Source: Acutalibacteraceae bacterium (GTDB lineage: Bacteria; Bacillota; Clostridia; Oscillospirales; Acutalibacteraceae). From it: a stretch of DNA of 64,000 nt. Location: assembly GCA_045579865.1 (NCBI GenBank), contig JAZNMU010000084.1:31576-95575 (forward strand), written 5' to 3'. Below are positions 315 to 19,652 of this stretch, piece by piece (within the stretch, counting starts at the first letter, position 1; every line of letters starts with the position of its first letter). The position numbers were made by a program, and so were the translations under genes. A model generated the notes under the pieces. That model did no database searches. It had not been told where the DNA came from and saw only the letters and a program-made list of their open reading frames with translations.

Positions 315-434
315 ATAATGGTAAAGAGTTGTATGATGCAAAGAAAAATAAATTGATTTACAAAATTAAAGATTAACATAGTAATAAATTTTTTAATATT
401 TAATAAGAAACTATATGTTTTGGAGGATGAAAAA

Positions 435-2378
435 ATGAAATGTCAAAAATGCGGCAAAGACAATCAATTATTGGTAACAACCTGTCCTTATTGTAATGAA
501 AATTACAGTTTAGCTTCCGTGTTAGCGTGGATAATAAGCGAGCAAGGTGAAGATGTACTAAAGGATGCTCGTTCGCTTAAATCTAATATTTTGGATTTGT
601 GTAGAGATTCAAATTATGATACCGTTGTTTTTGAGGGTTTGTTAAATCAAGGGTTTGCCAAAAAAATTGGTGAGCTTAATAAAACTTCAAACTTTGATGA
701 AGCCTTAGACACATATTGTAAAACACTTTCAGCGACTTACAACATTGATAAAATCAACTACATTGCTGATGCATTCTATTTTGCATTAACAGGAAAGAAT
801 AGGGTTCATAAAAAAGTAACACCTTCCCCTGTTAACACAACAAGAAATACACAAAACAATAATACATACACATCTTCTTCACCTAAAACTCCATATTCAA
901 CTGCTCAAGACCTGGTTTCAGATGTGATATCAAAAATTCAGAGCTTTGATTTTCAAAAGTTTTTTTCAAATATTAATGTTCAGAGCATTAAAACTTTTGT
1001 GAAAAAAAATAAAAAGATATCAATTGGCATTCTCGGTATTGTTGCATTAATAATTATAATTTCCATTATTTCATCTGTTGTGGAAAATTTCAACGACAGA
1101 AGAGATGCAATAACAACAAAATCTTATTATGAGGGTACAACGTATGAAGATCGTACCTCTGAAATTGAAAGCACTACTGAATATATAGAAACCACAACAG
1201 AAGAAACCACAGGACTGACTGGTGAGCCGATTGATACAGATGTTATAACAGATACTGTTTATCAAGGCTCTAGCAATGAGCATTATATCAAAAGTGACAA
1301 TCCAGGTATATACAGATTCACAGCTGCTGACAGAACAGCAAGTTATAATGTATACATAAAAGTATATAACACTAACGACGAAAGAATGCTGAATGTTACA
1401 AATGAGGGCTCATGTGAGTTGGAGGCAGGTGTAACATACAAAGTAGTTATAGAAACCGATAGTCCCTCTTGTTCCTATACCCTCAAAATAGACAGACCTA
1501 ATGAAGTGAAAAATATTTCTCAAGGAATAAACACTCTGCATGATGCTATAACATATATAGACCAGCGTAATATGTATACATTTTCTGCGCCAATTACAGG
1601 TCGGTATAGAGTTGATTGCCTTAACAGAACGGATGGATATAATCTTGGAATAGAGATATATAACTCTAATAATGATAGAGTATTTAGGGAAACAAATGGT
1701 GGTTACCTCGATATGGAAAAGGGTGTAGTATATTCAATAAGAGTTGCTTATTCCACGGGTACTTGTGAATATGATATAAAAGTTTCAATTCCTAATGATG
1801 TAAGAGAAATCACTTTGGAGGAAACAACTATTGCGGACAAATTTACTTTTGCAAATCAGATTAACACATATACATATACAGCTCCGGTAAGTGGTAAATA
1901 TAGATTTGAAACAAACGAAAGAACAAACGGATACAATGTTCAGTTAAGAATCTTTGATGCAAATAACAATAGAATAGTTAGAGAAACTAATAACGGCACA
2001 GTAGACCTGAATAAAGATGTCAAGTATAGAATCGAGGTTGAGTATGATACTGAATTATGTTCATACAACCTCGTGATTGGTGTTCCTAAAGAAGTAAAAG
2101 AAATTTCTGCAGGTAAAGCTATTGCTGATTCTATTACTTATGTTCATCAGGAAAACAGATACACATTTACCCCTAGTTCTTCAGGCGAATATGTTGTTAA
2201 GGCATCAAATAGAACAAATGACTATAATGTGGAAATTTATATGTATGATGCAAATAACAATAGAATTTTGAGAAATCACAATGAAGGAACCGTAAATTTA
2301 ACATCAGGAACCTTATATACAATATATGTTTGTTATGTAGATAATCTTTGTGATTACTCATTGACCGTGAAAAAATAA
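435..2378 (+). CDS. zinc-ribbon / single-pass membrane protein with four tandem PPC-like beta-sandwich repeats
   Basis: GGAGG at 422-426 then ATG 435. N-terminal CxxC...CxxC (CQKCG...CPYC). Hydrophobic helix ISIGILGIVALIIIISIISSVV. Four ~90-98 aa repeats follow, each with Y-x-F/Y...G-x-Y...YN...Y/FD/N-x-NN-x-R...Y-x-I/V...C-x-Y. Confidence 0.8.
   Translation: MKCQKCGKDNQLLVTTCPYCNENYSLASVLAWIISEQGEDVLKDARSLKSNILDLCRDSNYDTVVFEGLLNQGFAKKIGELNKTSNFDEALDTYCKTLSATYNIDKINYIADAFYFALTGKNRVHKKVTPSPVNTTRNTQNNNTYTSSSPKTPYSTAQDLVSDVISKIQSFDFQKFFSNINVQSIKTFVKKNKKISIGILGIVALIIIISIISSVVENFNDRRDAITTKSYYEGTTYEDRTSEIESTTEYIETTTEETTGLTGEPIDTDVITDTVYQGSSNEHYIKSDNPGIYRFTAADRTASYNVYIKVYNTNDERMLNVTNEGSCELEAGVTYKVVIETDSPSCSYTLKIDRPNEVKNISQGINTLHDAITYIDQRNMYTFSAPITGRYRVDCLNRTDGYNLGIEIYNSNNDRVFRETNGGYLDMEKGVVYSIRVAYSTGTCEYDIKVSIPNDVREITLEETTIADKFTFANQINTYTYTAPVSGKYRFETNERTNGYNVQLRIFDANNNRIVRETNNGTVDLNKDVKYRIEVEYDTELCSYNLVIGVPKEVKEISAGKAIADSITYVHQENRYTFTPSSSGEYVVKASNRTNDYNVEIYMYDANNNRILRNHNEGTVNLTSGTLYTIYVCYVDNLCDYSLTVKK
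1266..2375 (+). repeat. four intragenic tandem protein repeats (~270-295 nt each), pre-peptidase C-terminal (PPC)-like by pattern
   Basis: Repeat units start near aa 283, 368, 466 and 564 of the ORF. Each ends in the conserved (P)N/KEVK/REIS/T linker. Confidence 0.75.
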
Positions 2379-2392
2379 TTCTTAAAAAAGTA

Positions 2393-2431
2393 AAATTAGC
2401 TATGTGCTATAACAGGTACATAGCTAATTTT
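2393..2431 (+). terminator. hairpin terminator after the repeat-protein gene
   Basis: Perfect 13-bp stem AAATTAGCTATGT / ACATAGCTAATTT with a 12-nt loop. Confidence 0.6.
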
Positions 2432-2451
2432 AAAATGGGAGATTCGTGAAA

Positions 2452-3132
2452 ATGAAAGAATTATGTTGCTGTAATTGTCAAAGAAAATGGATAGTTTACA
2501 GTGAGGACTTGAATTACAACAAAGTTTGTCCTTTTTGTCTCCATGAAATTAAAAATAAAGCAAGTATTGAAAAAATAGAAACCTTTGAACAGCTAATTTT
2601 TAAAACCATAGAATTGCAAGGTACTGATGTTTTTAATAGCCCCAAAAGAATGAATGGAGTTATGATAGATTTTTCATCCAGGTTTCTAAAAGAAATTAAT
2701 ATATTTTTCAAAATATCTGATAAAGAGTTTAAGTTACTTAAAGATATATTTGATGGAGATTATAATGAAGCAGAGGAAAAACTACTTAAGCTTAAAAATT
2801 TATTGATAGATAGTGAAGGATTAGCAGAAAGTTGGGCAGAATTTATAAGAGAAAAGAATCTTATCGCTTTAAGTTTATATAAAGGTTTTGATAAAAACTG
2901 TTGTTCTTGGAATGTCTCTATTCAAGATTTAGTGTTTAGTAAGGATGAGGAAAACAATTTTTTTGTTAATGAAAAAGAAGACAACGATAATTATAGTGCC
3001 AATGATGACATAATAGTTGGGTATCATATTTTTTCTTTTCTGCATGGAAGACGCGTTAATATTCCACACGTATTTGATTCGCATTTGTTTAAATATATTG
3101 ATGCTTATGATTCGGAAAAAGTGGAAAAATAG
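2452..3132 (+). CDS. zinc-ribbon protein whose N-terminal module is paralogous to that of 435-2378
   Basis: GGGAG at 2437 then ATG 2452. CCCNC...CPFC zinc ribbon, followed by a helical module similar in pattern to residues ~30-120 of the previous protein. Ends in an A-run where the Sel1 frame takes over. Confidence 0.65.
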   Translation: MKELCCCNCQRKWIVYSEDLNYNKVCPFCLHEIKNKASIEKIETFEQLIFKTIELQGTDVFNSPKRMNGVMIDFSSRFLKEINIFFKISDKEFKLLKDIFDGDYNEAEEKLLKLKNLLIDSEGLAESWAEFIREKNLIALSLYKGFDKNCCSWNVSIQDLVFSKDEENNFFVNEKEDNDNYSANDDIIVGYHIFSFLHGRRVNIPHVFDSHLFKYIDAYDSEKVEK

Positions 3133-3185
3133 ATGATGCCATTACTTTATATCAGGAGTTAACACAATTTCGTTCTAAAAATTGT

Positions 3186-3530
3186 TTGCCTGCTTATATT
3201 AGACTTGCAATGTTGCATGAAAAATTAAATCACCGAAAAGCTGCATGGAGAACTTTATTATGGAGTGCAGAAAATGGTGATGCAGAATGTGCTTATTGGG
3301 TAGGAAAATATTATTGGATAGGAAAGAATACAAACAAGTCCCTAAACAATGCAATAAAATATTTTATGATTGCGGCTGAACAAGGAGTTTGTGAAGCGAA
3401 TATTACGTTAAGCTTAATACATAAAGATAATCAAACTGCATCTAGTACATATTTAAAATATGCTAAGAATAGTGTAAATAATGATATAATTATAGAAACT
3501 TTAAAAAAAGAAATTGAGAGATGGTTATAA
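3186..3530 (+). CDS. Sel1/TPR-like repeat segment, probably the C-terminal part of the 2452 gene reached by a -1 shift
   Basis: AECAYWVGKYYWIGKNTNKSLNNAIKYFMIAAEQG is a Sel1-type repeat. This frame is open from 3111 (FGKSGKIDDAITLYQEL...). It has only TTG 3186 or ATG 3210 as starts and no RBS. Confidence 0.5.
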   Translation: MPAYIRLAMLHEKLNHRKAAWRTLLWSAENGDAECAYWVGKYYWIGKNTNKSLNNAIKYFMIAAEQGVCEANITLSLIHKDNQTASSTYLKYAKNSVNNDIIIETLKKEIERWL

Positions 3531-3585
3531 ATAATTACCACATTAAATATTTAGAGTACGATATACTGAAAATGAGGTGATAAGT

Positions 3586-4233
3586 TTGGATAAAACATAT
3601 GTTAGAGGCAATTTAGCCAAAAATCAATCTGCAATAAAAAGTAGCAGATATGGTAAAAGTGGAGAAACAACAAGAAAAACTAAACTATCATCAAAAAATT
3701 TCGACAAACTTATGCAACAAAGAGGTTTAAGCAAGAAAGATGCTTTGTCTTTGAAATCTTCTTTTGATAGAAGTAGTCCTATGCAGGTAAGACACGCAAA
3801 AAAAGGAGAACAATTTACAGTTGCTCACGGGACCTCAAATGCTTCAGGTATTTTTGTTTCAAAAGGTTCTCTTGGTAAAACTCCTGATAAAAGAATAAAC
3901 AAGGGTGCTTTACCAAATAGTAATTCTGCAAAATATGAAACAAAGGTTGCATTAGATAAAAATCAAAATCTTATATACGGAAAAATAGCACCTCAATCAA
4001 AATTTCAGAAAATGGATCCAAAACAAACACCGAGAAAAGGTGGCGGAACACAAGTAATAACTGATGGAGGATATAAAAAAGGAGCAATTAGAAATAACGA
4101 TACAAAATTTCCTGTTCCTGCTAAATCATCTGCTCCTACTGCTTCGCAAAAGTTTAGAGAAAGCATTGGAAAAACAAATACGAGTTCAAATAATAAAACG
4201 AGGAAATCGAAATCGAACTCTCGAGGAAGGTAA
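3586..4233 (+). CDS. basic protein with TNT (tuberculosis necrotizing toxin)-like NAD glycohydrolase motif pattern
   Basis: GAGGTGA then TTG 3586 (GTG 3577 is an alternative). The core HG..SG.F.S...R....ALP....Y...V......YGKIAP...GGGTQ resembles my recollection of the TNT/DUF4237 pattern (RYG..G.F.S...R.LP...Y..Y.V...G..AP.FGQ.GGG.Q). K/S/R-rich tails. Stop lies 8 nt before the kinase-STAND gene. Confidence 0.4.
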   Translation: MDKTYVRGNLAKNQSAIKSSRYGKSGETTRKTKLSSKNFDKLMQQRGLSKKDALSLKSSFDRSSPMQVRHAKKGEQFTVAHGTSNASGIFVSKGSLGKTPDKRINKGALPNSNSAKYETKVALDKNQNLIYGKIAPQSKFQKMDPKQTPRKGGGTQVITDGGYKKGAIRNNDTKFPVPAKSSAPTASQKFRESIGKTNTSSNNKTRKSKSNSRGR

Positions 4234-4241
4234 AGATACAT

Positions 4242-7200
4242 ATGAAACGTTTTCTTTCTGTTGGTGAAACAATTACGCTATTAGCATTTAACGAACAAAA
4301 AGATTTCTTAATTACAGAAGTTCTTGGTGTTGGTGGTAGTTGTATTGCATATAAGGTTAAATATTATGAAAATGAAAATATACCTCATATAGGTATTATA
4401 AAGGAGTATTGTCCTGCATTTTTAGAAGATGAAAATTTTGAAAGAATCGGAAATGAACTGAAAGTTTCTGAAAATTTCAAAGAAAAGTTTTTAGAGGGTT
4501 TATGTGAGTTTAAAAGAACATATAAATCTATTAATGAATACTTGTCTAATAATCTTTCTGCGGCAAATTATCATACAGTACAAATTGGTCTGTACGAAGG
4601 TAATAATACTGCATACACATTAACATCCTGTGATTATGGTATGAGTTACGACAAGATTGACAACGAAAGTTTGTTGTCAATCTGTAAAACTATGCTTTCT
4701 GTAACGAAAGCTGTTGAACTTTACCATAATGCAGGATTTTTACATTTAGATATTAAACCAAAAAATATATTGGTTCTGAATGATGTAACTGACTTGATTA
4801 AACTGTTTGATTTTGACAGTCTTACCTCTATTGAAAAATTAAAAAGAAGAGAAGTATATGGTGTTCCTGTACCGGAAGATTATTATGTTCCCGAATTAGA
4901 AAACTATGATATACGAAATATTGGTATTGAAACGGATGTTTTTGAAATAGGAGCAATGTTATTCTTAAAAGTCTTCAAAAGAGCTCCTGAAGTATCAGAT
5001 ATGTCATATGATTCAAAATATGATATAGATAAAAATGAATTATTTGTTGGTATTTCCCCTCCAGCAAAAAAAGAGTTTGTTGAATTATTAAGGAAAACTA
5101 TACAAATATCAAAAAGAAGCAGATATAAAACAACGAGAGAATTAAAATCAAAGTTTGAAAAAATTATATCTCTTATTAATGAAGATAAACCGTATCTTCT
5201 TGATTTACCAAAATGGCAGCCATCAAAGAATTGCATTGGAAGAAAGACTGAAATAAAAGAAATAAAAAGAAGACTTGATGAAGATGGTTATGTTTTCATA
5301 AAGGGTATTGGTGGGCTTGGAAAATCTGAAATTGCCAAATTGTTTGCCGAAAACTACAAGAATGAATATCACACAGTTCAGTTCTGCAAATTTTCAGATA
5401 GTCTTAAATCAGTCGTTGCAACAATGTCTATAAATGGTATAGACGAACAAAATTATGGCAATGCTGAAGAATTAATAAAAGAAAAAAATAAGGTTTTACA
5501 TTTATCTGATGATAAAACATTAATTATTGTTGATAACTTTAATGTTACATATGATGACTTTTTGCGTGACTTTTTACCATCAGATAATAAAAGTTTTAAA
5601 GTAATTTTTACAACGCGATGTACAATGGCGGCTGAATATTATGAATCTAAAACTTATGATTTACCAAAGCTCTCTATGGATGAATGTAAAGCATTGTTTT
5701 TTGCACATCTTGCAACTTCTTCGAATGGTGAAGAGGAAGTAATAGAAGAATTAATAAAGTTTGTAGATTATAATACCTTGATTATTGTTTTGATGGCGAT
5801 TACTATAAGAAAATCAGGATTTACTTTGAGTGAGATGCTTTCAAATCTGAAAGAACAGAAAATTAATAGCGTGGAAACCGAAATTTTTCACGAATATGAT
5901 TTTTCATCAGATGAAGTAAATGCATATAACAAAATATATGCTCACTTATCAACGATTTTCAGTATTTGTGGTTTAACAGAAATAAATAAAGAAGTATTAA
6001 AAAATGCAACACTTATTTCGTTAAATGGAATAGGTTTAGATGAGTTTATCAAACAATGTGGTTCTAGCAACATCAATCAAAATTCAGTTGATGATGTTGT
6101 TGATATGGGCTGGCTTAATAAAGATTCAAATGATATTATTTCAATGCATCCAATAATTTCTGATATGTTTTCGACAAACGAAGAATTATATAAAAAAGAA
6201 AGCTATTATAAGTTTGCCGAGCATTTAGAAGATTTCTGCAATCCGGATTATTGTCATTTCTCTATAGTTCTCAATAAACTTGCTTGCGCAAAGCATTTAG
6301 AAAGAAGATATACATTTGAAACTGATGAAAAAAAGGTGATTATAACTGTTAAGTTAGGACGAATGTATGAAAATATTTATCAGCCAAATGAAGCACGAAA
6401 ACATTTAAAAAGAGCATTGGCACTTGCAAAAGATTTAGGTTTAGATGCAGAAGTCATATATATATATAGCTTTTTGGGAAGTGTTGAAAAGGATTTTGGC
6501 ACATATAGGAAGGCCATAGACTATTATCAAAAGTGTATTTTTGAAGGCAAAAAACTTAAAAACAGGTTTTATTATGTTGTTGTCGAATCTATGATAGCCA
6601 TATCTGATTGTCATGAGAACAATAATGATAAGATAAAAGCATATAACTCTTATCTTGAGGCATTAAATTATTCAAAATGCTTTAAACTTTATGAGTATAT
6701 TCCTCAAATAGCTGACAGTTTAATTAAGTTATGTGAAGAGTTAGATTGGAAAGAAAAAGAACAAATTTATAGACGAGTTTTAAGTAAATATGGTTCTTTT
6801 GCTGAACCTTCTGAAGAAGATGTTGAATTTGATGAATTTTCAAAGAAAAGTGAAGAAGGAGATTATGAAGGTAGTCTGATTGCATACGAGAAAATATTGT
6901 CATCCCAAATAGAAGAACTTGGGGAAGATTCCCCAGTATACAAAGATTTGAAAAGAAATTTATGGGGGTTTTATGCAATAAACAAACAAAAAGAACAGGC
7001 ATTACATCTTTTGAGCGAAAACTTTGCATTTATCGAAAGTACTTACGGTGAAAATTCAATGGAAATGGCAAGAGAACTTTCTTCGGCATCAAATATAATG
7101 CTTGAACTTACAGAGTTTGAAAGTGCGGAAAAGTTTTCAAAAAGAGCCATCGAAATTTGTGAAGATTATGATGCTCAAGATGAATATTCGTATGTTGAAG

Positions 7201-8660
7201 CTGTCTTCGCACTTGCAAGGCTTTATCTTGTACAAGGTAAACACGAAGCTGCTTCAATGCTCGTAAAGAAAATTGATTTTTCAAGGTTTTCGGGAAATGA
7301 CTTTTTATCGGACATTATAACGGCTTGTGGTATGGTAATGTGTCAACTTAGTAAATTTGATGAGGTGGAGCCACTGTGCCAAGAAGTTTTGGATAAAAAA
7401 GGTATAGAAGATAAGTATAAGTATTTATCATATATTATCTTGGCAATGATATATGAACAAAAAGGCAAGTTTGACGAGGCTGAAAGATATGCTAATAGTG
7501 CAAAGGATAGTATAAGTGGCTTAAAAACTGAGCACATAAAAAAAGAGTGGTTGGTTGCTTACTATCGTTCAATTGCTAGAATTAAATTAAGGAAAGGTAA
7601 TCCCCAAGAGGCCATCTTGATTCTTTCTAACTTTATTGACAGTTTCAACGAGGAAGAAAAAGATAGTTTATTCTATTTGAATGGGGTTTATTCAGATCGA
7701 GGATTGTTCTATTTTTACTGTGACGATATTGAAAAGGCAACGTCAGATTTTAATAAGTGTGAGGAAATGCTTGTCAAAAATAATTTGCCGGATGATGCGT
7801 TTGCAGTTCTCTATAATAATATTGCAATGAATTATGAAAAGACAGGTCATTATGCAGAAGCAAAGAAATATCTTGAAAAAATAGTAAATGTAAATAAAAA
7901 TGTATTAAAGCCTAAATCATATTTTGATGCAATCGTTTGCAGTAATATTGGTTGGGTTGATTATAACTTGGGTAATATTGAGCAAGGACTTTGTTTGTTA
8001 AAGAACGCTGTTATTGCTTTGGAAAACCTTGGTATAATCGATACAACTGATTATTTCAAAATGAAGAATAATATAGCAATTGTGTATATCAGCCAAGAAA
8101 AATATCTAAACTCTTTTAACGAATATTCTGATATAAGAAATAGATATGATCCAATGACTGATTTTAACGGTGAAATGTCGATAAAAACCAATTTTGGTAT
8201 AGCCTTCTCACTGTTAAAACTTGATAGAGCAGAAGATGCTTATGATTTTTCTTTAGAAGAGCTGAAAAGATTTGAAACTTGGTTCGGCAAAACTTCTCCT
8301 ATAAGAATTAAAGCGATTCTTCAAATGGGGGGGTTATTTAGAGAGTTTGGCTATTCAGATTGTTATGATTTCTTTTTTCTCGCAGACGAGTTAATGGATG
8401 AATCCGGAGATTTTAATTCATTAAATAATGCCAAACTACTCAATTATATTGGTTTGTATTTTACAGATGAAAAGAAAGAACACGGTTTTGCAAAACTAAA
8501 ATTTGAAGAATCAAAGCAGCTTTTCGAAGAACTCAATGCCACTGATGATGAGATGTATCCTATTGTGGTGAAAAATATTGAATATGTAAGAGATTTAATT
8601 ATGGATGACCTTATCGGAAAAATGGCTCAGAGTATGATTGATGAAACACAGGAGGATTAG
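4242..8660 (+). CDS. Ser/Thr protein kinase - NB-ARC (STAND P-loop NTPase) - TPR repeat protein
   Basis: Kinase motifs: LGVGGSCIAYK (Gly loop and Lys38), HLDIKPKN (168-175), DFD (190-192), YYVPE. NB-ARC motifs: Walker A GIGGLGKS (355-362), Walker B LIIVDNF, KVIFTTR. About 750 aa of TPR-like helical repeats follow. Confidence 0.85.
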   Translation: MKRFLSVGETITLLAFNEQKDFLITEVLGVGGSCIAYKVKYYENENIPHIGIIKEYCPAFLEDENFERIGNELKVSENFKEKFLEGLCEFKRTYKSINEYLSNNLSAANYHTVQIGLYEGNNTAYTLTSCDYGMSYDKIDNESLLSICKTMLSVTKAVELYHNAGFLHLDIKPKNILVLNDVTDLIKLFDFDSLTSIEKLKRREVYGVPVPEDYYVPELENYDIRNIGIETDVFEIGAMLFLKVFKRAPEVSDMSYDSKYDIDKNELFVGISPPAKKEFVELLRKTIQISKRSRYKTTRELKSKFEKIISLINEDKPYLLDLPKWQPSKNCIGRKTEIKEIKRRLDEDGYVFIKGIGGLGKSEIAKLFAENYKNEYHTVQFCKFSDSLKSVVATMSINGIDEQNYGNAEELIKEKNKVLHLSDDKTLIIVDNFNVTYDDFLRDFLPSDNKSFKVIFTTRCTMAAEYYESKTYDLPKLSMDECKALFFAHLATSSNGEEEVIEELIKFVDYNTLIIVLMAITIRKSGFTLSEMLSNLKEQKINSVETEIFHEYDFSSDEVNAYNKIYAHLSTIFSICGLTEINKEVLKNATLISLNGIGLDEFIKQCGSSNINQNSVDDVVDMGWLNKDSNDIISMHPIISDMFSTNEELYKKESYYKFAEHLEDFCNPDYCHFSIVLNKLACAKHLERRYTFETDEKKVIITVKLGRMYENIYQPNEARKHLKRALALAKDLGLDAEVIYIYSFLGSVEKDFGTYRKAIDYYQKCIFEGKKLKNRFYYVVVESMIAISDCHENNNDKIKAYNSYLEALNYSKCFKLYEYIPQIADSLIKLCEELDWKEKEQIYRRVLSKYGSFAEPSEEDVEFDEFSKKSEEGDYEGSLIAYEKILSSQIEELGEDSPVYKDLKRNLWGFYAINKQKEQALHLLSENFAFIESTYGENSMEMARELSSASNIMLELTEFESAEKFSKRAIEICEDYDAQDEYSYVEAVFALARLYLVQGKHEAASMLVKKIDFSRFSGNDFLSDIITACGMVMCQLSKFDEVEPLCQEVLDKKGIEDKYKYLSYIILAMIYEQKGKFDEAERYANSAKDSISGLKTEHIKKEWLVAYYRSIARIKLRKGNPQEAILILSNFIDSFNEEEKDSLFYLNGVYSDRGLFYFYCDDIEKATSDFNKCEEMLVKNNLPDDAFAVLYNNIAMNYEKTGHYAEAKKYLEKIVNVNKNVLKPKSYFDAIVCSNIGWVDYNLGNIEQGLCLLKNAVIALENLGIIDTTDYFKMKNNIAIVYISQEKYLNSFNEYSDIRNRYDPMTDFNGEMSIKTNFGIAFSLLKLDRAEDAYDFSLEELKRFETWFGKTSPIRIKAILQMGGLFREFGYSDCYDFFFLADELMDESGDFNSLNNAKLLNYIGLYFTDEKKEHGFAKLKFEESKQLFEELNATDDEMYPIVVKNIEYVRDLIMDDLIGKMAQSMIDETQED

Positions 8661-8663
8661 AAG

Positions 8664-10070
8664 ATGAAAGATGGTTATACAGGTATTATGACCGAAAAAA
8701 TAAATGATTGGGGTCTTGACAAAATATATGAAATGGAAGATGACATATATGGACTTGAAAATAGGGTTCCTGAAATCATTGACTATCTAAAAGATATACG
8801 TTTTTCAATGCCGTTAGGTTTAGCCTTGAGAAGATACATTTGTGAACAGTATAGTAATGGCTTTGACACAGAAAAACAATGTTATAGTTTTACTTTACCT
8901 GAGAAGGTCATTTTTACAAAAGATCACACAAGCGAAGATTATAATATAGAAACCGATGATATTGCAGAGTATATAGACATATTTAACTATATAAATGCAA
9001 AGTCTAATACTGATGCAAATGGCAATCTCACTATAGATATACCAAAAGCTGAAATTAGGAGACAACTTCGTGCTACTACTGGATGCATCAGAAAGAAAAT
9101 GTTTGATTTGAGCTTTGCATTACATATGGATAGTGAATACACATCTAAGTTTTTAACAGATGTGTTGGCAGAGCAGACTTATAATTACAGAGAACCTAAG
9201 GAAATAATCGCATTATTCTGTCAATCAAATGAAGAGTTTAATAGTTATCAAAAGTATGATGAGCTGTGTCAATTGTTTGATGTTAGATCTAAAGATATAG
9301 TTAAAACAAAAGAAAAAAAAGAGAACTATACATCTTTTGCGAGAAGCACGGTTACACAAGAAATAAAAACAGAAGAAATGCTAATGGAGTTTCTTTTAGC
9401 CAACATATCAAATTTTTATAGCTATTCAGAAACTGCATATAATGAGTTTGTTTCTTTGTATGTTAAAGCGAGTTCGTCATTATTATCTTCAGAGAAGAAA
9501 ACAGAATTTGAAGGGAAAACGATAGAAGAACGAATTGCTATTATAAAGGAACAAATAAAGAACGATAATCTAATAAATCCGGAGCAGTTAGCAAAGGAAA
9601 TGCTTGCGTGTATTCCTAGAGCTACCACTGAAAGGATCAAGGGCGGCAAGAAAATTGTAAGCAACGATTTCATTAATATTTATAATGGTGAGGGCGGACA
9701 GGATAGCAAAAAGATTAAGACTACTGAACTGCCAAAAAGAATCACTATGAATCTTCCGGTCAGTGATAGGCTATGGGATTTGATTAGAAGAGAAAAAACA
9801 GTTGACAGAAAAGACATAGTATTTATGAAGTTTTATGTTTTTTCACTGTATTTGCAGGAAAAAGACGAATACTCTGCTGAAGATTATTTTATCTTTTTAG
9901 ATGAATGTAATGATCTTCTAATGAGGTGTGGCATGTCAAGGTTGTATCCCGGTAATAGGTTTGAAAACCTGATAATGCTGTCTCTTCTTGCCTCCAACCC
10001 GTTTGAAATGTTTGAGAATATTATTGAATTTTCTTTTATGAATGAACCTAAACCGGATACCGTAGAATAA
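8664..10070 (+). CDS. hypothetical 468-aa helical protein, operon partner of the kinase-STAND gene
   Basis: AGGAGGA RBS. ATG lies 3 nt after the upstream stop. I recognise no motif. Confidence 0.7.
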   Translation: MKDGYTGIMTEKINDWGLDKIYEMEDDIYGLENRVPEIIDYLKDIRFSMPLGLALRRYICEQYSNGFDTEKQCYSFTLPEKVIFTKDHTSEDYNIETDDIAEYIDIFNYINAKSNTDANGNLTIDIPKAEIRRQLRATTGCIRKKMFDLSFALHMDSEYTSKFLTDVLAEQTYNYREPKEIIALFCQSNEEFNSYQKYDELCQLFDVRSKDIVKTKEKKENYTSFARSTVTQEIKTEEMLMEFLLANISNFYSYSETAYNEFVSLYVKASSSLLSSEKKTEFEGKTIEERIAIIKEQIKNDNLINPEQLAKEMLACIPRATTERIKGGKKIVSNDFINIYNGEGGQDSKKIKTTELPKRITMNLPVSDRLWDLIRREKTVDRKDIVFMKFYVFSLYLQEKDEYSAEDYFIFLDECNDLLMRCGMSRLYPGNRFENLIMLSLLASNPFEMFENIIEFSFMNEPKPDTVE

Positions 10071-10133
10071 CAGTTTCTCCATTTTCCTTCTTTCATTGTG
10101 ATAGTATAAACACAACGAAAGAAGAGGTGTTCA

Positions 10134-10601
10134 ATGGATAGTAAAATTTTACACAACATTAAAGACACACCATTTAATGAAAGAGAAACATTTAATAACG
10201 CAATTCTGCTTTTGTCAATGGTTAAAAGCGAGTATTACTATATAGTAGGGTTTTCAAGACCGGATAATAAAATAGAGATAGGCTTCGATTTTGAAGACAA
10301 AGCATACGGACAGATTTCTGAAACTGTTATAATGGACTTTAGTAGCAACTCGACAAGAATTTTGATGACTTCTCAATTGACAAATATAGTTTTTAAAGAA
10401 AAGAACAGAATTCCATTTCATCAAAAAGATAACTTCAAAATTAATAATGGTAATATTGTTTACGAGAGATTATTCAAAAAAGATGATGTTATTCCCGTAA
10501 GTATGGACAAATTAAACTTAATAATTTTGTCTGTAAAAAAGGATCTTGAAGAGTTTATAAAACAAAGTTTTGCATACATACTTACTCAAAGAAGGAAATG
10601 A
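10134..10601 (+). CDS. hypothetical 155-aa protein translationally coupled to the JAB gene
   Basis: GAAGAGGTG RBS. Its stop overlaps the next start (ATGA). It has no Cys and no C-terminal GG. Confidence 0.65.
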   Translation: MDSKILHNIKDTPFNERETFNNAILLLSMVKSEYYYIVGFSRPDNKIEIGFDFEDKAYGQISETVIMDFSSNSTRILMTSQLTNIVFKEKNRIPFHQKDNFKINNGNIVYERLFKKDDVIPVSMDKLNLIILSVKKDLEEFIKQSFAYILTQRRK

Positions 10602-11035
10602 CAATGAAAATATTGCAAAATGTTTATTTGAAAATACTGAATAGTTATCCTCTCCCTCCTCCTGAACAAGGAGGTATAATGGGTATAAAAAATAGCATAG
10701 TCTGTGAATATTATCACGATAATTCCCAAAATGCAACTGAAAGAGCTGTGTATGAGCCTGACATTAATGCTTTTAATCAAAGAATTGAAGAATGGGATAA
10801 GTACGGCATACAGTTTTCAGGCATTATTCATAGTCACTTGTTAGAACAAAACACATTATCGTCAGGAGATAAAGAATATATTAAACAGATATTCGATAAT
10901 CTACCTAAAGGTGTAGATGAATTATATTTTCCTATTATTATCCCTGAGACAAAACAGGTGTTCTCATTTGTTGCTAAAAGAAAAGATAAAGATGTAATCA
11001 TCCAACAAGATGAAATACATATAATGTTAGAATGA
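10598..11035 (+). CDS. JAB/MPN (JAMM) family metallopeptidase, minimal single-domain form
   Basis: Exact JAMM motif H78-S-H80-x7-S88-x2-D91 (IIHSHLLEQNTLSSGD), plus the upstream Glu in PPPEQGGIMG. The start may be the second ATG at 10604. Confidence 0.8.
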   Translation: MTMKILQNVYLKILNSYPLPPPEQGGIMGIKNSIVCEYYHDNSQNATERAVYEPDINAFNQRIEEWDKYGIQFSGIIHSHLLEQNTLSSGDKEYIKQIFDNLPKGVDELYFPIIIPETKQVFSFVAKRKDKDVIIQQDEIHIMLE

Positions 11036-11049
11036 AAGGTGGTGTAAAT

Positions 11050-11232
11050 ATGAACGAGACAAAGAAAACTCAGGTTAAACTTCCTTGCGGCAAACTTTGT
11101 GGACACAACTGTGCAGATGGTTGTGCATACTGGAATCCCAGAAAGAAGGATAGCAATGGTAGACAGTATTGCAATTGGTACGGACATTACTATTACCCAC
11201 ACGAGAGACAGGGCTGCTTATCTTACAAATAA
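11050..11232 (+). CDS. Cys-rich miniprotein (about 60 aa), probable zinc-binding
   Basis: AAGGTGG RBS then ATG 11050. Sequence PCGKLCGHNCADGCAYW...QYCNWYGHYYYPHERQGC. Overlaps the end of the JAB gene. Confidence 0.6.
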   Translation: MNETKKTQVKLPCGKLCGHNCADGCAYWNPRKKDSNGRQYCNWYGHYYYPHERQGCLSYK

Positions 11233-11245
11233 AAATATACATAGC

Positions 11246-11284
11246 AAAGACGAAGGCGTTGAGTTTTGCCTTCGTCTTTTTTTG
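11246..11284 (+). terminator. rho-independent terminator closing the 3586-11232 operon
   Basis: Perfect 12-bp stem AAAGACGAAGGC / GCCTTCGTCTTT followed by a T-run. Confidence 0.85.
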
Positions 11285-11297
11285 TAGTAAACCAAAA

Positions 11298-11332
11298 CCA
11301 CAACTCTTGTTGGTGATTAACTTATAATAAAG
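11298..11332 (+). promoter_or_regulatory. island promoter motif copy 1 (CCACAACT-N17-TATAATAAAG)
   Basis: One of five copies with identical 17-nt spacing. Lies 29 nt upstream of the 11361 start. Confidence 0.6.
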
Positions 11333-11360
11333 TCATCAAGAAAAAGGAAGGAACTTTCAA

Positions 11361-11741
11361 ATGAATATTTGTGTAAGTTGTAAAGATTATTTTAAGGAAT
11401 CAAAAGAGGTACAAAAAGCTATTGTAAGTGGGGTGGAAACACTTTATGGACGGATTCAGAATTATGAAGAACAAAACATAGATTTTAATCGGATTTTCAA
11501 TGACGACAAGGTTAAATATGATAAACACGGTCAGTTTTATACTTTTAAGTTTCAGAAATCAAATATGCAGTTAAGAGTGCTTTATTCATATTTGATTATT
11601 GATTGTTCACCAGTAGTAATTATAGCTGATTTCTTTGTAAAAAAAAGAAATTCCAAAGACTATATCGGGAAATTCAATTCATTAAATAAGGTTAATCCTT
11701 TGGATTTGTATAGCAAATCTAAAGTTGTATATTCGATATAA
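11361..11741 (+). CDS. RelE/ParE-HigB (Gp49)-like toxin-fold protein
   Basis: FKFQKSNMQLRVLYSYLIIDCSPVVIIADFFVKKRNSKDYI matches the ...R.LY....(V/I)VI...F.KK....Y pattern of this superfamily. No adjacent HTH antitoxin. Confidence 0.45.
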   Translation: MNICVSCKDYFKESKEVQKAIVSGVETLYGRIQNYEEQNIDFNRIFNDDKVKYDKHGQFYTFKFQKSNMQLRVLYSYLIIDCSPVVIIADFFVKKRNSKDYIGKFNSLNKVNPLDLYSKSKVVYSI

Positions 11742-11760
11742 AAGCGAAGGAGAAATGAAT

Positions 11761-12021
11761 ATGAAAAATAAGGTTGTAGTTAAAAAGGCGAATGATGAGA
11801 TTAAATTCTATCTCAAAAATGATAAAGGTGAATATTGGTTATTCACACAGCCTTTTTCAAAAGGTGTTTATGAGTGGTTTAAAGATGGACGTTCTGAGAA
11901 TGAAATTTTAAGATTTGATAAGTGGAAAAAGAACAAAAGACTTGGAGCTACAGTGCAAAGAATTCCTCGTGAAATCAAATATGTTACTAAGTATGTTATC
12001 CCGTATGAAATAGCAGCTTGA
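11761..12021 (+). CDS. hypothetical 86-aa protein
   Basis: AAGGAG at 11747 with ATG 11761 at good spacing. No motif recognised. Confidence 0.55.
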   Translation: MKNKVVVKKANDEIKFYLKNDKGEYWLFTQPFSKGVYEWFKDGRSENEILRFDKWKKNKRLGATVQRIPREIKYVTKYVIPYEIAA

Positions 12022-12056
12022 TTAACAAATCAAAAAAATAGTGCGAGGTTAGATTT

Positions 12057-13154: not shown

Positions 13155-13217
13155 TTTTAGTACATACACGATATGCATACCTGTTAAAAATCAAAAATCA
13201 TATAAACATCTTGCTTT

Positions 13218-13247
13218 GGGAGCCGTTTTTGGCTCCCTTTCTATTTT
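13218..13247 (+). terminator. rho-independent terminator
   Basis: GGGAGCC gttttt GGCTCCC followed by TTTCTATTTT. Confidence 0.7.
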
Positions 13248-13259
13248 GAAAAAGAGTTT

Positions 13260-13294
13260 CCACAACTGTTGGTTGAGTGTGATGTAGAATAAAG
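13260..13294 (+). promoter_or_regulatory. island promoter motif copy 2 (CCACAACT-N17-TAGAATAAAG)
   Basis: Same bipartite motif and spacing as copy 1. Upstream of 13337. Confidence 0.55.
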
Positions 13295-13336
13295 TTACAG
13301 GGTTGAGAGACCTAATAAAACGAAGGAGAAACAGTT

Positions 13337-13561
13337 ATGGAAATCTTTGAAAGACTTGACACAATAAGGGGAACGGTAATCGGATGTAATGAACATGGAT
13401 GCCGTGTCAGAGACGATGAAACAGGAAAAGTAGTTTTTTATTATGGAAACGGCTACAAAGGAGACAGAGTTCAACTTTCAATAAAAAGGATTGACCTTGA
13501 ACGTCAAAGAGTGACTTGTGTATTGGAGTCGGTTTTAGAATATGCTGATTATGTAGCTTGA
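13337..13561 (+). CDS. small S1/OB-fold-like protein (74 aa)
   Basis: GGAG RBS. The G.V....G..V........GD.V...I..ID pattern is reminiscent of S1-like domains. Confidence 0.5.
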   Translation: MEIFERLDTIRGTVIGCNEHGCRVRDDETGKVVFYYGNGYKGDRVQLSIKRIDLERQRVTCVLESVLEYADYVA

Positions 13562-13571
13562 TTAACAGTTT

Positions 13572-13606
13572 ACACAGTTTCACAGAGTCAATGCAGTACA
13601 ATAAAT
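13572..13606 (+). promoter_or_regulatory. island promoter motif copy 3 (ACACAGTT-N17-TACAATAAAT)
   Basis: Same spacing. Drives micropeptide ORF 1. Confidence 0.5.
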
Positions 13607-13633
13607 TCATCAAATAAAAAAGGAGAAAACGAA

Positions 13634-13714
13634 ATGGAGTATTCGAGAGACCGGCCTTTCAACAAGGTGAAACATTTGATTAACCAAATCCACAATTTGA
13701 CATTTAGTGTATAG
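13634..13714 (+). CDS. micropeptide 1, MEYSRDRPFNKVKHLINQIHNLTFSV (26 aa)
   Basis: AAAGGAGAA RBS 7 nt upstream. Shares the SRDRPF core and flanking nucleotides with micropeptide 2. Below the ORF-track size cutoff. Confidence 0.4.
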   Translation: MEYSRDRPFNKVKHLINQIHNLTFSV

Positions 13715-14017: not shown

Positions 14018-14026
14018 TTTAATTAA

Positions 14027-19304: not shown

Positions 19305-19652
19305 TGGTGGAGATGGCGGTAATCGAAACCGCGTCCGAAAATCCATTCACACAACTTTCTCCGGGTGCTGTCAGTCTTTTAACATTCCCTCAGTCTCACG
19401 CCGAATGACAGGCTTAAAACCTCAGTATCCTCTGATGCGTGACGGCATACGAGGATGCTCTGCCGTGCACGTTCACTGCTGATCGACGCCTTCAGTTAAG
19501 CCGCAGTACTCTTAACCAAGACGGGCCGCTTAAGCAGCCTTTAAAACTGTATTGTTGTCAGTTATTTTTAAATGTGTGACCTTTTAAAGCGATTGCCACA
19601 GCGCTACCCGCTTATCGTGCTTCAAAACCCCCGTCGAAATCCTTTCATCCCC
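19305..19652 (-). ncRNA. ssrA: tmRNA (transfer-messenger RNA)
   Basis: Minus strand reads 5' GGGGATGAAAGGATTTCGACGGGGG ... GGACGCGGTTTCGATTACCGCCATCTCCACCA 3'. Probable tag reading frame GAC AAC AAT ACA GTT TTA AAG GCT GCT TAA (…DNNTVLKAA). smpB is adjacent. Confidence 0.9.

What the first reader, a model, noticed from the sequence alone, without database searches (positions are those of the whole stretch)
3586..11232. Candidate undescribed multi-gene conflict/defence operon: TNT-like protein + kinase-NB-ARC-TPR + two orphans + JAB peptidase + Cys-rich miniprotein
**Operon structure.** Six co-oriented genes are packed with minimal or overlapping junctions:
- The 4233 stop to the 4242 start is an 8-nt gap.
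- The 8660 stop to the 8664 start is a 3-nt gap.
- 10598 and 10601 overlap in ATGA.
- The JAB gene end overlaps the last ORF.

The set is closed by one strong terminator at 11246.

**Component logic.** The parts match the usual build of abortive-infection or immune systems:
- a STAND NTPase with a TPR sensor arm;
- enzymatic effector candidates (a Ser/Thr kinase domain in cis and a TNT-like NADase-like protein in trans);
- a JAB/JAMM isopeptidase, which in CBASS and Bil systems regulates conjugation-type signalling.

**Context.** It sits in an AT-rich island at ssrA, a classical defence-island location. I do not recognise this gene combination as a named system.
Basis: partly seen in the sequence, partly recalled or inferred. 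Interest (0 to 1): 0.85.

Follow-up and report, generated by a model that had tools for sequence, protein, structure and literature searches.

The report
Kinase-NLR gene cassette on mobile island
A real, tightly packed gene string on a mobile island of a gut Clostridia bacterium turns out to be three separable modules: an NAD-destroying toxin-like protein, a conserved kinase-fused NLR-type sensor with two uncharacterised partner proteins, and a small protease plus zinc-type mini-protein pair. None of them matches a named defence system, and none has been tested.

Summary
**Observation: confirmed.** Six co-oriented genes at 3586-11232 have the stated junctions and one strong terminator. They lie in an AT-rich island that abuts the 3' end of ssrA.

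**Domain calls hold:**
- B is a Ser/Thr kinase + NB-ARC + TPR protein.
- E carries an intact JAMM motif.
- A has a Tse6/TNT-type NADase fold by AlphaFold2 + Foldseek.
- F belongs to a conserved 274-cluster family.

**The six genes are not one evolutionary unit.**
- Homology to the closest relative (92% nt) starts 15 nt before B. Upstream of that point lies a variable cargo array, and A is one occupant of it.
- B-C is the invariant pair and D usually follows.
- E-F is an autonomous JAB + Cys-rich mini-protein module. It also occurs without B-C-D, sometimes next to radical-SAM/SPASM genes.
- C has a confident model (pLDDT 90) with no analogue in the two libraries searched (PDB, BFVD). Its wider family (872 clusters) sits beside Hanks-type kinases and PP2C phosphatases across Firmicutes-type (Clostridia) contigs.

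**Status.** No PADLOC system matches. No E1/E2/Ubl or CD-NTase gene is present, so the CBASS/Bil analogy fails. All five conserved genes are under purifying selection.

**Best reading.** This is an ICE-borne STAND-kinase signalling or conflict module, a new variant of the NLR-like kind. A defence function is plausible but unproven.

The parts
3586..4233 (+). A: Tse6/TNT-fold NAD(P)+ glycohydrolase-like protein (215 aa from TTG 3586) with a Lys/Ser/Asn-rich basic C-terminal tail. It belongs to the variable array upstream of B, not to the conserved cassette.
   Evidence: - AF2 model has pLDDT 74.
- Foldseek PDB hits: Tse6 4zv0 E 2.9e-6, AfNADase 6yge/8pmr, Tne2 6b12, Rhs1-CT 6xtd.
- The family has 170 clusters at >50% identity.
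- A is absent in L120.
- RBS supports the 3586 start.
4227..4241 (.). Left boundary of the conserved block. Nucleotide homology to the closest relative (L120) begins here, 15 nt before the ATG of B.
   Evidence: blastn of the window against L120 gives 92.4% identity over 4227-13278 and nothing upstream.
4242..8660 (+). B: a 1472-aa STAND protein. It has a Hanks-type Ser/Thr kinase (nt 4317-5153), NB-ARC NTPase (nt 5244-5759) and a long TPR arm (about nt 6279-8657).
   Evidence: - Pfam domain hits.
- HxDIKPxN and Walker B in all 14 homologues; the GIGGLGKS-type P-loop in 12 of 14.
- Kinase core is 79% identical across homologues, the TPR arm 27-45%.
- dN/dS is 0.12.
8664..10070 (+). C: a 468-aa member of a large uncharacterised family that is genomically coupled to Hanks-type kinases. 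The model is confident but has no analogue in the two libraries searched (PDB, BFVD).
   Evidence: - 236 close homologues.
- 872 representative clusters.
- No Pfam family in 56 members.
- AF2 pLDDT 90.
- Foldseek PDB and BFVD give no hit.
- An STK neighbour in 10 of 11 distant clusters with enough flank.
- dN/dS is 0.05.
10134..10601 (+). D: a 155-aa clade-specific protein of unknown fold that follows C in most loci.
   Evidence: - tblastn synteny.
- 30 invariant positions in 12 homologues.
- No Pfam, PADLOC, PHROG, NCBIfam or PDB hit.
- dN/dS is 0.14.
10598..11035 (+). E: a minimal JAB/JAMM metallopeptidase (145 aa) with an intact active-site motif.
   Evidence: - E23, H78, H80, S88 and D91 are invariant.
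- Best PDB match is JAMM1 5lda, E 1e-4.
- Pfam Prok-JAB E 2.5e-4, below the cut-off.
11032..11232 (+). F: a Cys-rich mini-protein (66 aa, more likely 60 aa from ATG 11050). It has 4 invariant Cys and is probably a Zn-binding fold. In 4 of 4 non-B-C-D contexts and in all F-bearing B-C-D cassettes it lies directly downstream of a JAB gene.
   Evidence: - The family has 274 clusters.
- A 48-aa core is >=90% conserved at most positions, with a variable N-leader.
- JAB-F adjacency holds in every context read.
- dN/dS is 0.07.
11246..11279 (+). Intrinsic terminator closing the gene string.
   Evidence: 13-bp stem, 6 G-C pairs, followed by TTTTTGT.
420..3530 (+). Variable upstream array, co-oriented with A-F. 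It holds a Zn-ribbon/TM/beta-repeat protein (420-2378) and a Zn-ribbon protein (2446-3132) plus Sel1 fragment (3186-3530). The last two together are collinear with one 460-aa protein elsewhere.
   Evidence: - ORFs.
- No terminator between these genes and B.
- u3-like and Sel1 genes accompany A in other elements.
- Evidence for a split gene.
19305..19652 (-). ssrA (tmRNA). Its 3' end abuts the AT-rich island, so it is the island's integration site.
   Evidence: ARAGORN, Rfam 142 bits and a GC step at about 19 kb.

Best explanation
The interval is a co-transcribed string made of three separable modules. It is carried on an ssrA-integrated, ICE-like AT-rich island of an uncultured gut Clostridia bacterium (Acutalibacteraceae/Ruminococcus-like).

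**Core module (B-C, usually with D).** This is a STAND/NLR-type sensor whose output domain is a Hanks-type Ser/Thr kinase.
- Inferred mechanism: a ligand bound by the divergent TPR arm licenses NB-ARC nucleotide-dependent oligomerisation. That brings the N-terminal kinase domains together, and they then phosphorylate the translationally coupled partner C, and perhaps D.
- C belongs to a large family, with no analogue in PDB or BFVD, that is the habitual genomic partner of Hanks kinases and PP2C phosphatases in Firmicutes-type (Clostridia) contigs. It is therefore best read as the kinase's dedicated substrate or adaptor.

**Second module (E-F).** This is an autonomous pair: an active JAMM peptidase and a very conserved Cys4 mini-protein. 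The peptidase most likely processes or regulates the mini-protein. The pair is added to the core in most loci but not all.

**Third module (A).** A is a Tse6/TNT-fold NADase-like protein. It is one interchangeable occupant of a variable array of toxin-, protease- and Zn-ribbon-type genes that precedes B.

**Overall reading.** The whole is most plausibly an MGE-borne biological-conflict system, acting in defence, abortive infection or inter-element competition.

**Shown:** gene reality, domains, motifs, synteny, modularity and purifying selection.

**Inferred:** ligand sensing, phosphorylation of C, the E-F substrate relation and any immune role.
For: **B.**
- Architecture from Pfam.
- HxDIKPxN and Walker B motifs are conserved in all 14 homologues and the P-loop in 12 of 14.
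- The TPR arm is the most divergent part, at 27-45% identity against 79% for the kinase core.

**B-C-D linkage.**
- B-C is adjacent in every locus with enough sequence, and D follows in 13 of 15.
- The order survives an IS110 insertion between B and C.
- B and C are 3 nt apart.
- Distant C homologues lie beside an STK in 10 of 11 clusters, and beside a PP2C in 6.

**E-F.**
- The full JAMM motif is invariant.
- JAB is directly upstream of F in 4 of 4 non-B-C-D contexts and in all F-bearing B-C-D cassettes.
- Divergent JAB'/F' alleles are swapped together as a pair.

**A.**
- NADase fold.
- A is replaced by other genes in the closest relatives, with a breakpoint at 4227.
- The array upstream of B varies: TerY_C, transglutaminase-like, M48, TM2, STK/VWA/PP2C.

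**Mobile-element context.** TraG-like ATPases, sortase/pilin, CHAP and M23 genes surround the cassette elsewhere.

**Selection.** dN/dS is 0.05-0.46 for all genes.

**Defence link.** The kinase part resembles the kinases of PD-T4-6, MAD6 and MkoA.
Against: - There is no experiment.
- No PADLOC system-level match exists, and no known defence system lies in the visible island.
- The cassette sits at a fixed place next to conserved backbone genes (the 126-aa gene and the metallophosphoesterase). It is not in an obviously shuffled defence hotspot.
- Distant C relatives lie in housekeeping neighbourhoods (rpoC ... rpsL-rpsG-fusA). This points to ordinary signalling as much as to immunity.
- The TPR arm shows no sign of positive selection against the closest relative, with omega 0.08-0.09.
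- D has no assignable fold.
- Nothing links E-F mechanistically to B.
- There are no matches in PLSDB plasmids, and almost none in IMG/VR.
Confidence: 0.5

Rival explanations
1. **The first reader's model.** All six genes form one obligate defence system. The STAND kinase senses infection, the TNT-like NADase A is its trans effector, and the JAB peptidase regulates a CBASS/Bil-type conjugation step.
For: - A and B are 8 nt apart in the window and adjacent in L010.
- A has an NADase toxin fold.
- E is an intact JAMM peptidase.
Against: - A is absent from the 97%-identical relative, and the homology break lies 15 nt before B.
- A is adjacent to B in only 2 of about 15 distinct loci.
- The A family mostly lies beside TraG-like ATPases and Zn-ribbon/Sel1 genes, without B-F.
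- No E1, E2, Ubl or CD-NTase gene was detected.
- E-F occurs on its own elsewhere.
Confidence: 0.1
2. **Non-immune signalling.** B-C-D is a regulatory phosphorylation module of the mobile element or host. It might control ICE excision or transfer, envelope stress or development. It would be comparable to PknK/MalT/AfsR-type STAND regulators and to the chromosomal STK-PP2C-C cassettes.
For: - C relatives sit with STK and PP2C in housekeeping contexts.
- The cassette has a fixed position next to ICE backbone genes.
- Purifying selection is strong, without diversifying signal.
Against: - There is no DNA-binding output domain in B-F.
- Toxin-, protease- and immunity-like cargo lies next to B.
- The distribution is patchy, with 12 of 185,579 species representatives carrying it.
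Confidence: 0.25
3. **Peptide- or RiPP-linked system.** The TPR arm of B senses a peptide, as RRNPP-type receptors do. E is a peptide-processing protease, and F (or the nearby 40-aa Cys-rich peptides) is the peptide.
For: - JAB-F lies next to radical-SAM/SPASM maturase-like genes and homologous 40-aa Cys-rich peptides in two unrelated contexts.
- B's NB-ARC part resembles the RiPP-associated NB-ARC/TPR proteins FxSxx_TPR and HaaT, but far below their cut-offs.
Against: - No maturase lies in the window.
- F has a variable leader and an extremely conserved core, the reverse of a RiPP precursor.
- The full-text library returned no paper combining JAMM with these RiPP terms.
- B-C-D exists without E-F.
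Confidence: 0.1
4. **Chance juxtaposition.** The genes are unrelated or decaying cargo, with no joint function.
For: - The upstream genes are clearly shuffled cargo, and u3/u4 look like a split gene.
Against: - Order is conserved down to 38-57% identity in many species.
- Start and stop codons are coupled.
- omega is 0.05-0.46 for all genes.
Confidence: 0.03

Closest known systems
Antiviral STAND / bacterial NLR-like proteins (Avs/AVAST, bNACHT)
   Same: Tripartite layout of N-terminal output domain, STAND NTPase and C-terminal TPR-type sensor arm. Carried on a mobile element. The expected logic is ligand-induced oligomerisation.
   Different: - The NTPase is of the NB-ARC type, and no Avs or NACHT model of PADLOC matches.
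- The output is a protein kinase rather than a nuclease, SIR2, TIR or protease.
- It comes with conserved partner genes (C, D).
- No phage phenotype is known.
Defensive Ser/Thr kinases (Stk2, PD-T4-6, MADS MAD6, the kinase part of Mokosh MkoA)
   Same: Hanks-type kinase domain with an intact catalytic loop. PADLOC models of these hit B aa 140-325 with E 1e-10 to 9e-16.
   Different: - Only the kinase part matches.
- Those proteins lack an NB-ARC/TPR body, and their partner genes are absent here.
Kinase/PP2C/vWA ('TerY-P'-type) triads and NTP-dependent conflict systems with variable effectors (Kaur et al. 2020, PMC7159879)
   Same: - Kinases are noted there as effector domains of such systems.
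- Zn-ribbon (TerY_C), Sel1, vWA, PP2C and tubulin-like genes occur next to B in relatives.
- A conserved NTPase core is flanked by interchangeable effector-like genes.
   Different: - The window has no vWA, PP2C, MoxR or GTPase gene.
- The B-C-D-E-F combination is not described in that paper's text.
JAB/JAMM peptidases of Ubl systems (archaeal JAMM1, CBASS Cap3, Bil BilC)
   Same: Minimal JAMM domain with E...HxHx7SxxD. The best solved relative is P. furiosus JAMM1.
   Different: - No Ubl, E1, E2 or CD-NTase lies nearby.
- The constant partner is a Cys-rich mini-protein without a Gly-Gly end.
Tse6 / TNT / Tne NAD(P)+ glycohydrolase toxins
   Same: A's predicted fold matches Tse6, fungal TNT-like NADases, Tne2 and an Rhs C-terminal toxin at Foldseek probability 1.00.
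   Different: - The Pfam TNT model does not match.
- A has no secretion or delivery domain (PAAR, Rhs, LXG).
- No recognisable immunity gene is present.
- A is free-standing, with a basic tail, and sits in ICE-like contexts.
NB-ARC/TPR proteins of RiPP-type systems (FxSxx-COOH TPR protein, HaaT)
   Same: NB-ARC + TPR body, with NCBIfam FxSxx_TPR E 1.8e-22 over the NB-ARC part. Radical-SAM/SPASM genes follow the cassette in L001.
   Different: - The score is 80 bits against a cut-off of 300.
- There is no FxsA/FxsB equivalent in the window.
- B has an extra kinase domain.

Membership tests
STAND NTPase, NB-ARC clade (B) | P-loop NTPase with Walker A and Walker B, matching the NB-ARC profile above its cut-off. 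| tested here: met
   PF00931 scores 37.0 bits against a cut-off of 23.5. GIGGLGKS-type Walker A is found in 12 of 14 homologues and LIIVDN-type Walker B in all 14.
Avs/AVAST antiviral STAND | Match to an Avs family model. | tested here: not met
   The PADLOC scan of B returns only kinase (MkoA, mad6, PD-T4-6) and TPR models, and no Avs model.
Avs/AVAST antiviral STAND | N-terminal effector + NTPase + C-terminal repeat sensor in one protein. | tested here: met
   Pkinase aa 26-304, NB-ARC aa 335-506, TPRs from about aa 680 to 1300+.
Avs/AVAST antiviral STAND | Protection against phage that depends on the NTPase and the effector. | not testable with these tools
   Requires cloning and phage challenge.
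Hanks-type Ser/Thr protein kinase (B, N-terminus) | Gly-rich loop, beta3 Lys, HxD-x4-N catalytic loop and DFG-type Mg site. | tested here: met
   - PF00069 scores 52.3 bits against a cut-off of 31.7.
- GxGGSC and HLDIKPKN are conserved in 14 homologues.
- DFD is present in 11 of 14.
- A conserved IxKE is seen in the sequences.
PD-T4-6 / MADS / Mokosh (PADLOC systems hit by B) | Full-length match and presence of the system's other genes. | tested here: not met
   Hits cover only B aa 140-325. No other protein of the locus hits these systems.
JAB/JAMM metallopeptidase (E) | E...H-x-H-x7-S-x2-D zinc and catalytic motif. | tested here: met
   - E23, H78, H80, S88 and D91 are invariant in 10 homologues.
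- The profile hits JAMM1 5lda at E 1e-4.
- The Pfam score (21.4) is below the cut-off of 25.
CBASS / Bil-type Ubl-conjugation regulated systems | An E1/E2 (Cap2 or BilB/BilD) enzyme and a Ubl or CD-NTase target next to the JAB gene. | tested here: not met
   No ThiF, UBC, Ubl or CD-NTase family was detected in A-F or in the neighbours scanned with Pfam/PADLOC/NCBIfam; PADLOC on the rest of the island is also negative. F lacks a Gly-Gly C-terminus. D's fold is unknown.
TNT/Tse6/Tne NADase toxins (A) | The shared NADase fold. | tested here: met
   Foldseek gives 4zv0 E 2.9e-6 (TM 0.69 on target), 6yge/8pmr at about 1e-4 and 6b12 at 4e-3, all at probability 1.00. The model is of moderate confidence, with pLDDT 74.
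TNT/Tse6/Tne NADase toxins (A) | Sequence-profile membership (Pfam TNT) and catalytic residues. | tested here: inconclusive
   - No Pfam hit at E<=0.1 and no PDB sequence hit.
- Invariant R106 and GGG-x-Q159 resemble the TNT R/Q motif as I recall it. This was not verified by a residue-level superposition.
TNT/Tse6/Tne NADase toxins (A) | A delivery domain and an adjacent cognate immunity gene. | tested here: not met
   - No delivery domain was detected.
- Neighbours differ between loci: u3/Sel1, WG_beta_rep, DUF6273.
- No known immunity family was found.
RiPP biosynthetic cluster (E-F) | A precursor with a conserved leader and variable core, plus a maturase in the locus. | tested here: not met
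   - F has a variable leader and a >=90% conserved core.
- No maturase lies in the window.
- SPASM maturase-like genes are adjacent only in L001 and L110.
TerY-P type triad (vWA + PP2C + kinase) | All three genes present. | tested here: not met
   The window has no vWA or PP2C gene. The triad lies directly upstream of B in L005 and L117.

The most novel reading that the evidence does not exclude
B-C-D(+E-F) could be a previously undescribed NLR-type conflict system with three new features.
- Its output is phosphorylation of a dedicated adaptor or effector (C) whose fold has no analogue in PDB or BFVD.
- The C family (872 clusters, no Pfam) is the generic, so far unrecognised partner of Hanks kinase-PP2C pairs across Firmicutes-type (Clostridia) contigs.
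- JAB + Cys4 mini-protein is a new portable protease/effector module.
Probability: 0.25. Interest if true: 0.8.

Novelty: new variant of a known kind. Interest (0 to 1): 0.6.

Why it matters
**A new kind of NLR output.** If the core works as inferred, it would add a kinase-output NLR-like system with obligate partner proteins to the prokaryotic STAND repertoire. The known cases mostly kill through nucleases, NADases or proteases.

**A handle on orphan kinases.** It would also give a first functional handle on a large protein family (C), with no analogue in PDB or BFVD, that accompanies eukaryotic-like kinases and PP2C phosphatases in gut Firmicutes-type (Clostridia) contigs. The substrates of most such kinases are unknown.

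**Two other testable units.**
- The JAB + Cys-rich mini-protein pair is a small, widespread unit that is easy to test.
- The free-standing Tse6/TNT-fold protein on conjugative-type elements is a second such unit.

**What tempers the claim.** All of this rests on comparative genomics and predicted structures only.

Tried and rejected
**Family and sequence scans**
- Pfam, PADLOC, NCBIfam and PHROGs scans of A, C, D and F gave nothing.
- Scanning 56 diverse C-family members and 3 more D homologues against Pfam also gave nothing.
- PDB sequence-profile searches gave no credible hit for A, D or C.
- The F profile's best PDB hits are designed 'Bagel' repeat proteins with no single passing stretch. 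I treat these as compositional.

**Structure searches**
- Foldseek of the confident C model against PDB and BFVD gave a best E of 0.3-0.4 and TM <= 0.14.

**Searches of other collections**
- tblastn of C and A against PLSDB plasmids found no match.
- IMG/VR scans found nothing for F and one contig for A.
- A profile scan of viral contigs with the broad C alignment failed, because no conserved stretch was available.

**Specific ideas tested and dropped**
- Were the 140-aa and 62-aa genes after the Pkinase-VWA-PP2C triad in A-bearing Lachnospiraceae elements a JAB-F pair? They are not.
- Is there an att-type repeat of the ssrA 3' end? None lies in the window, so the island's far end is outside it.
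- Is the TPR arm under positive selection? It is not.
- Literature searches found no description of this gene set or of JAMM peptidases in RiPP clusters.

Full report
**1. The observation**

The + strand of 3577-11232 carries six consecutive ORFs.

| Gene | Coordinates | Length |
|---|---|---|
| A | 3577/3586-4233 | 218 aa (215 from TTG 3586) |
| B | 4242-8660 | 1472 aa |
| C | 8664-10070 | 468 aa |
| D | 10134-10601 | 155 aa |
| E | 10598-11035 | 145 aa |
| F | 11032-11232 | 66 aa |

- A to B is an 8-nt gap.
- B to C is a 3-nt gap.
- D and E overlap in ATGA.
- The E stop overlaps the first ATG of F.

The start codons are as follows:
- F probably begins at ATG 11050, which follows AAGGTGGTG.
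- B, C, D and E all have good ribosome-binding sites.

A 13-bp G+C-rich hairpin followed by a T-run sits at 11246-11279.

The string lies in a low-GC stretch. GC is 0.28-0.39 (mostly 0.29-0.36) over 1-19000 and 0.41-0.49 beyond. The stretch ends at the 3' end of ssrA, at 19305-19652 on the minus strand.

**2. What each gene is**

*B.*
- It has a Hanks-type kinase (aa 26-304), an NB-ARC NTPase (aa 335-506) and a long TPR arm.
- In 14 homologues the HxDIKPxN catalytic loop and the Walker B motif are all kept; the GIGGLGKS-type P-loop is found in 12 of them.
- The kinase core is the most conserved part (79% identity). The TPR arm is the least conserved (27-45%).

*E.*
- It falls just under Pfam's Prok-JAB threshold.
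- It carries the complete JAMM motif, E23...H78-x-H80-x7-S88-x2-D91, invariant in ten homologues.
- Its profile finds archaeal JAMM1 (5lda, E 1e-4).

*A.*
- It has no sequence-level match to any family or solved structure.
- An AlphaFold2 model (pLDDT 74) matches several NADase toxins at Foldseek probability 1.00:
  - the T6SS NADase toxin Tse6 (4zv0, E 2.9e-6, TM 0.69 on the target);
  - the TNT-like NADase of Aspergillus fumigatus;
  - Tne2;
  - an Rhs C-terminal toxin.
- The 'TNT-like' call is therefore supported at the level of fold.

*C.*
- It gives a confident model (pLDDT 90, pTM 0.87).
- That model has no analogue in the PDB or in BFVD. The best E is 0.3-0.4 and TM is at most 0.14.

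*D.* It has no detectable relative outside its own clade.

*F.*
- It belongs to a family of at least 274 clusters.
- The N-terminal 7-42 residues vary. A 48-residue core, lP.G.fCGhNCadGCiYWnP...NGRQyC..Y..yYYPrERQGCLSyk, is at least 90% conserved at most positions.
- Four Cys are invariant even in a divergent allele.
- This pattern is the reverse of a RiPP precursor. It fits a small, probably zinc-binding, folded protein.

**3. Synteny and modularity**

*The conserved order.* C has 236 close homologues, all unnamed. Loci were recovered through C from assemblies and from one genome per GTDB species.
- Twelve species carry it: Acutalibacteraceae, Ruminococcus and Clostridia MAGs, plus one isolate, Ruminococcus sp. 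zg-924.
- tblastn shows B-C adjacent wherever the sequence allows, and D after C in 13 of 15 distinct loci.
- Identities are 38-57% in the distant loci, and the order survives an IS110 insertion between B and C.

*E-F behaves differently.*
- It is present in most loci.
- It is absent in L013, L014 and L119.
- In L008, L010 and L122 it is replaced by a JAB at 30-35% identity, together with a different 58-aa Cys-rich protein. Other genes (Sel1, an ADP-ribosylglycohydrolase) are inserted before the pair.
- F-family genes in unrelated contexts are always preceded by a JAB gene. The contexts are:
  - an HTH gene, an 80-aa membrane protein, then JAB-F;
  - a Zn-ribbon/membrane operon.
- In two cases JAB-F is followed by radical-SAM/SPASM maturase-like enzymes and homologous 40-aa Cys-rich peptides.
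- E-F is thus a portable two-gene module.

*A is not part of the conserved block.*
- In the closest relative (L120; C 97% identical) nucleotide homology of 92.4% runs from window position 4227 to the contig end. It stops 15 nt before the ATG of B.
- Upstream of that point, L120 has DUF6273, transglutaminase-like, M48 peptidase and TerY_C Zn-ribbon genes instead of A.
- Other relatives have still other genes there: STK-VWA-PP2C, TM2, tubulin-like, Zn-ribbon.
- A's own family has 170 clusters at >50% identity. In Lachnospiraceae-type elements it lies mostly next to TraG-like ATPases, Zn-ribbon/Sel1 genes related to the window's 2446-3530, TerY_C, and a kinase-VWA-PP2C triad, without B-F.

**4. 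The C family**

- A full HMMER scan of 1.84 billion representatives finds 872 clusters at E <= 1e-3.
- None of 56 diverse members has a Pfam domain covering the family.
- Eighty metagenomic loci of the distant ~400-aa branch were fetched. They form 13 distinct clusters.
  - In 10 of the 11 with enough flank, a Hanks-type kinase lies within 6 kb on the same strand.
  - A PP2C lies there in 6 and an FHA protein in 2, often with overlapping stop and start codons.
- Many of these loci are chromosomal, between rpoC and rpsL-rpsG-fusA.
- C is therefore best described as a kinase-associated protein family. In the window its kinase happens to be fused to a STAND/TPR body.

**5. Selection and context**

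Against L120, dN/dS values are as follows.

| Gene | dN/dS |
|---|---|
| B | 0.12 |
| C | 0.05 |
| D | 0.14 |
| E | 0.46 |
| F | 0.07 |

- All five are maintained by purifying selection. There is no diversifying signal in the TPR arm (0.08-0.09).
- The cassette sits at a constant place upstream of a 126-aa gene and a metallophosphoesterase.
- It lies within elements that carry TraG-like coupling proteins, sortases and pilin, and CHAP, M23 or C39 cell-wall hydrolases. This is an ICE-type element rather than a classical defence island.
- The visible 19 kb of the island contains no recognised defence system.
- C and A have no match in PLSDB. In IMG/VR, F has no match and A has one.

**6. Mechanism**

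*Shown:* domains, motifs, gene coupling, modularity and selection.

*Inferred:*
- The TPR arm binds a ligand. NB-ARC-driven oligomerisation then activates the kinase, which phosphorylates C and possibly D.
- The downstream effect is unknown.
- E most likely acts on F, or is regulated by it.
- A is a separate NADase-type toxin or effector of the variable array.
- I rate a conflict or defence role as the single most likely reading, at about 0.5. The reasons are the STAND architecture, the carriage on a mobile element, the toxin-, protease- and immunity-like neighbours, and the resemblance of the kinase to defensive kinases.

*Rivals:*
- A non-immune signalling role (0.25). It is favoured by the housekeeping contexts of C relatives and by the fixed position in the element.
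- A peptide- or RiPP-linked role (0.1).
- Chance juxtaposition (0.03).

**7. Comparison with known systems**

- *Avs and bacterial NLR-like proteins.* The layout is that of these proteins, but no Avs or NACHT model matches, and the output is a kinase.
- *Kaur et al. 2020.* Kinases are listed there as effector domains of NTP-dependent conflict systems, mainly in actinobacteria. Kinase-PP2C-vWA sets and tubulin-containing neighbourhoods are also described (PMC7159879). The B-C-D-E-F set is not described in its text.
- *Recent STAND survey.* PMC13581612 does not mention kinase-STAND proteins.
- *CBASS/Bil.* Membership fails for lack of E1, E2, Ubl or CD-NTase genes.
- *RiPP cluster.* Membership fails on precursor logic and on the absence of a maturase.

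**Verdict.** This is a new variant of the STAND/NLR-like kind, with three uncharacterised partner families (C, D, and the E-F pair as a unit).

Noticed in passing
L058, L104, L053, L026, L030 and others (distant C-family loci): Chromosomal cassettes of Hanks kinase, PP2C and a C-like protein, often with overlapping stop/start codons. They sit between rpoC and rpsL-rpsG-fusA in human-gut contigs. An uncharacterised, apparently housekeeping kinase partner family.
   Followed up: partly
L001:12397-17106 and L110:6549-9277: JAB-F is followed by radical-SAM/SPASM maturase-like genes that score below every NCBIfam cut-off. Homologous 40-aa Cys-rich peptides (..KVS..KF...C.RC..SDG) follow too, and L001 adds two methyltransferases. 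This looks like an undescribed RiPP-type cluster linked to the JAB-F pair.
   Followed up: partly
L117:11957-12652: JAB and F are fused in one 231-aa ORF, a 1-nt difference from L118 where they are two overlapping genes. It is either a natural fusion or an assembly indel.
   Followed up: partly
window 4227: A sharp recombination breakpoint. There is 92.4% nucleotide identity to L120 from 4227 to 13278 and none upstream. The region upstream of B is a swap site for toxin-, protease- and Zn-ribbon-type cargo.
   Followed up: yes
window 2446-3530: The Zn-ribbon protein (2446-3132) and the Sel1 fragment (3186-3530) are collinear with aa 1-227 and 296-374 of a single 460-aa protein in L023. They are probably one gene split in the window.
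   Followed up: partly
window 420-2378: A 652-aa protein with an N-terminal Zn-ribbon, one TM segment and at least four tandem ~95-aa beta-rich repeats (Y.FT...NRT.GYN...Y..NN.R). It is 66% identical to its L010 counterpart, which also lies upstream of A.
   Followed up: partly
L001-L004: 8443-9735: An IS110-family transposase is inserted between B and C on the opposite strand. C-D-E-F remain intact downstream.
   Followed up: no
L020-L025, L106: In Lachnospiraceae-type elements (e.g. Claveliimonas bilis) the A-family NADase-like gene follows a 439-aa TraG/VirD4-like ATPase. A Pkinase-VWA-PP2C triad precedes it. Zn-ribbon/Sel1, TerY_C, CHAT-TPR and SUKH genes follow it. A's basic C-terminal tail could be a T4SS export signal; this was not tested.
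   Followed up: partly
window 11361-11741 and 16265-17041: A 126-aa gene and a metallophosphoesterase recur downstream of the cassette in nearly all related loci, at 49-91% identity. They mark a conserved element backbone.
   Followed up: partly
L122:12250-13077: An ADP-ribosylglycohydrolase gene lies between D and the alternative JAB'-F' pair in a relative whose C is 89% identical.
   Followed up: no
window 15121-16308: A guanylate-kinase domain (aa 214-391) is fused to an unknown 200-aa N-terminal region. The gene overlaps the start of the metallophosphoesterase gene.
   Followed up: no
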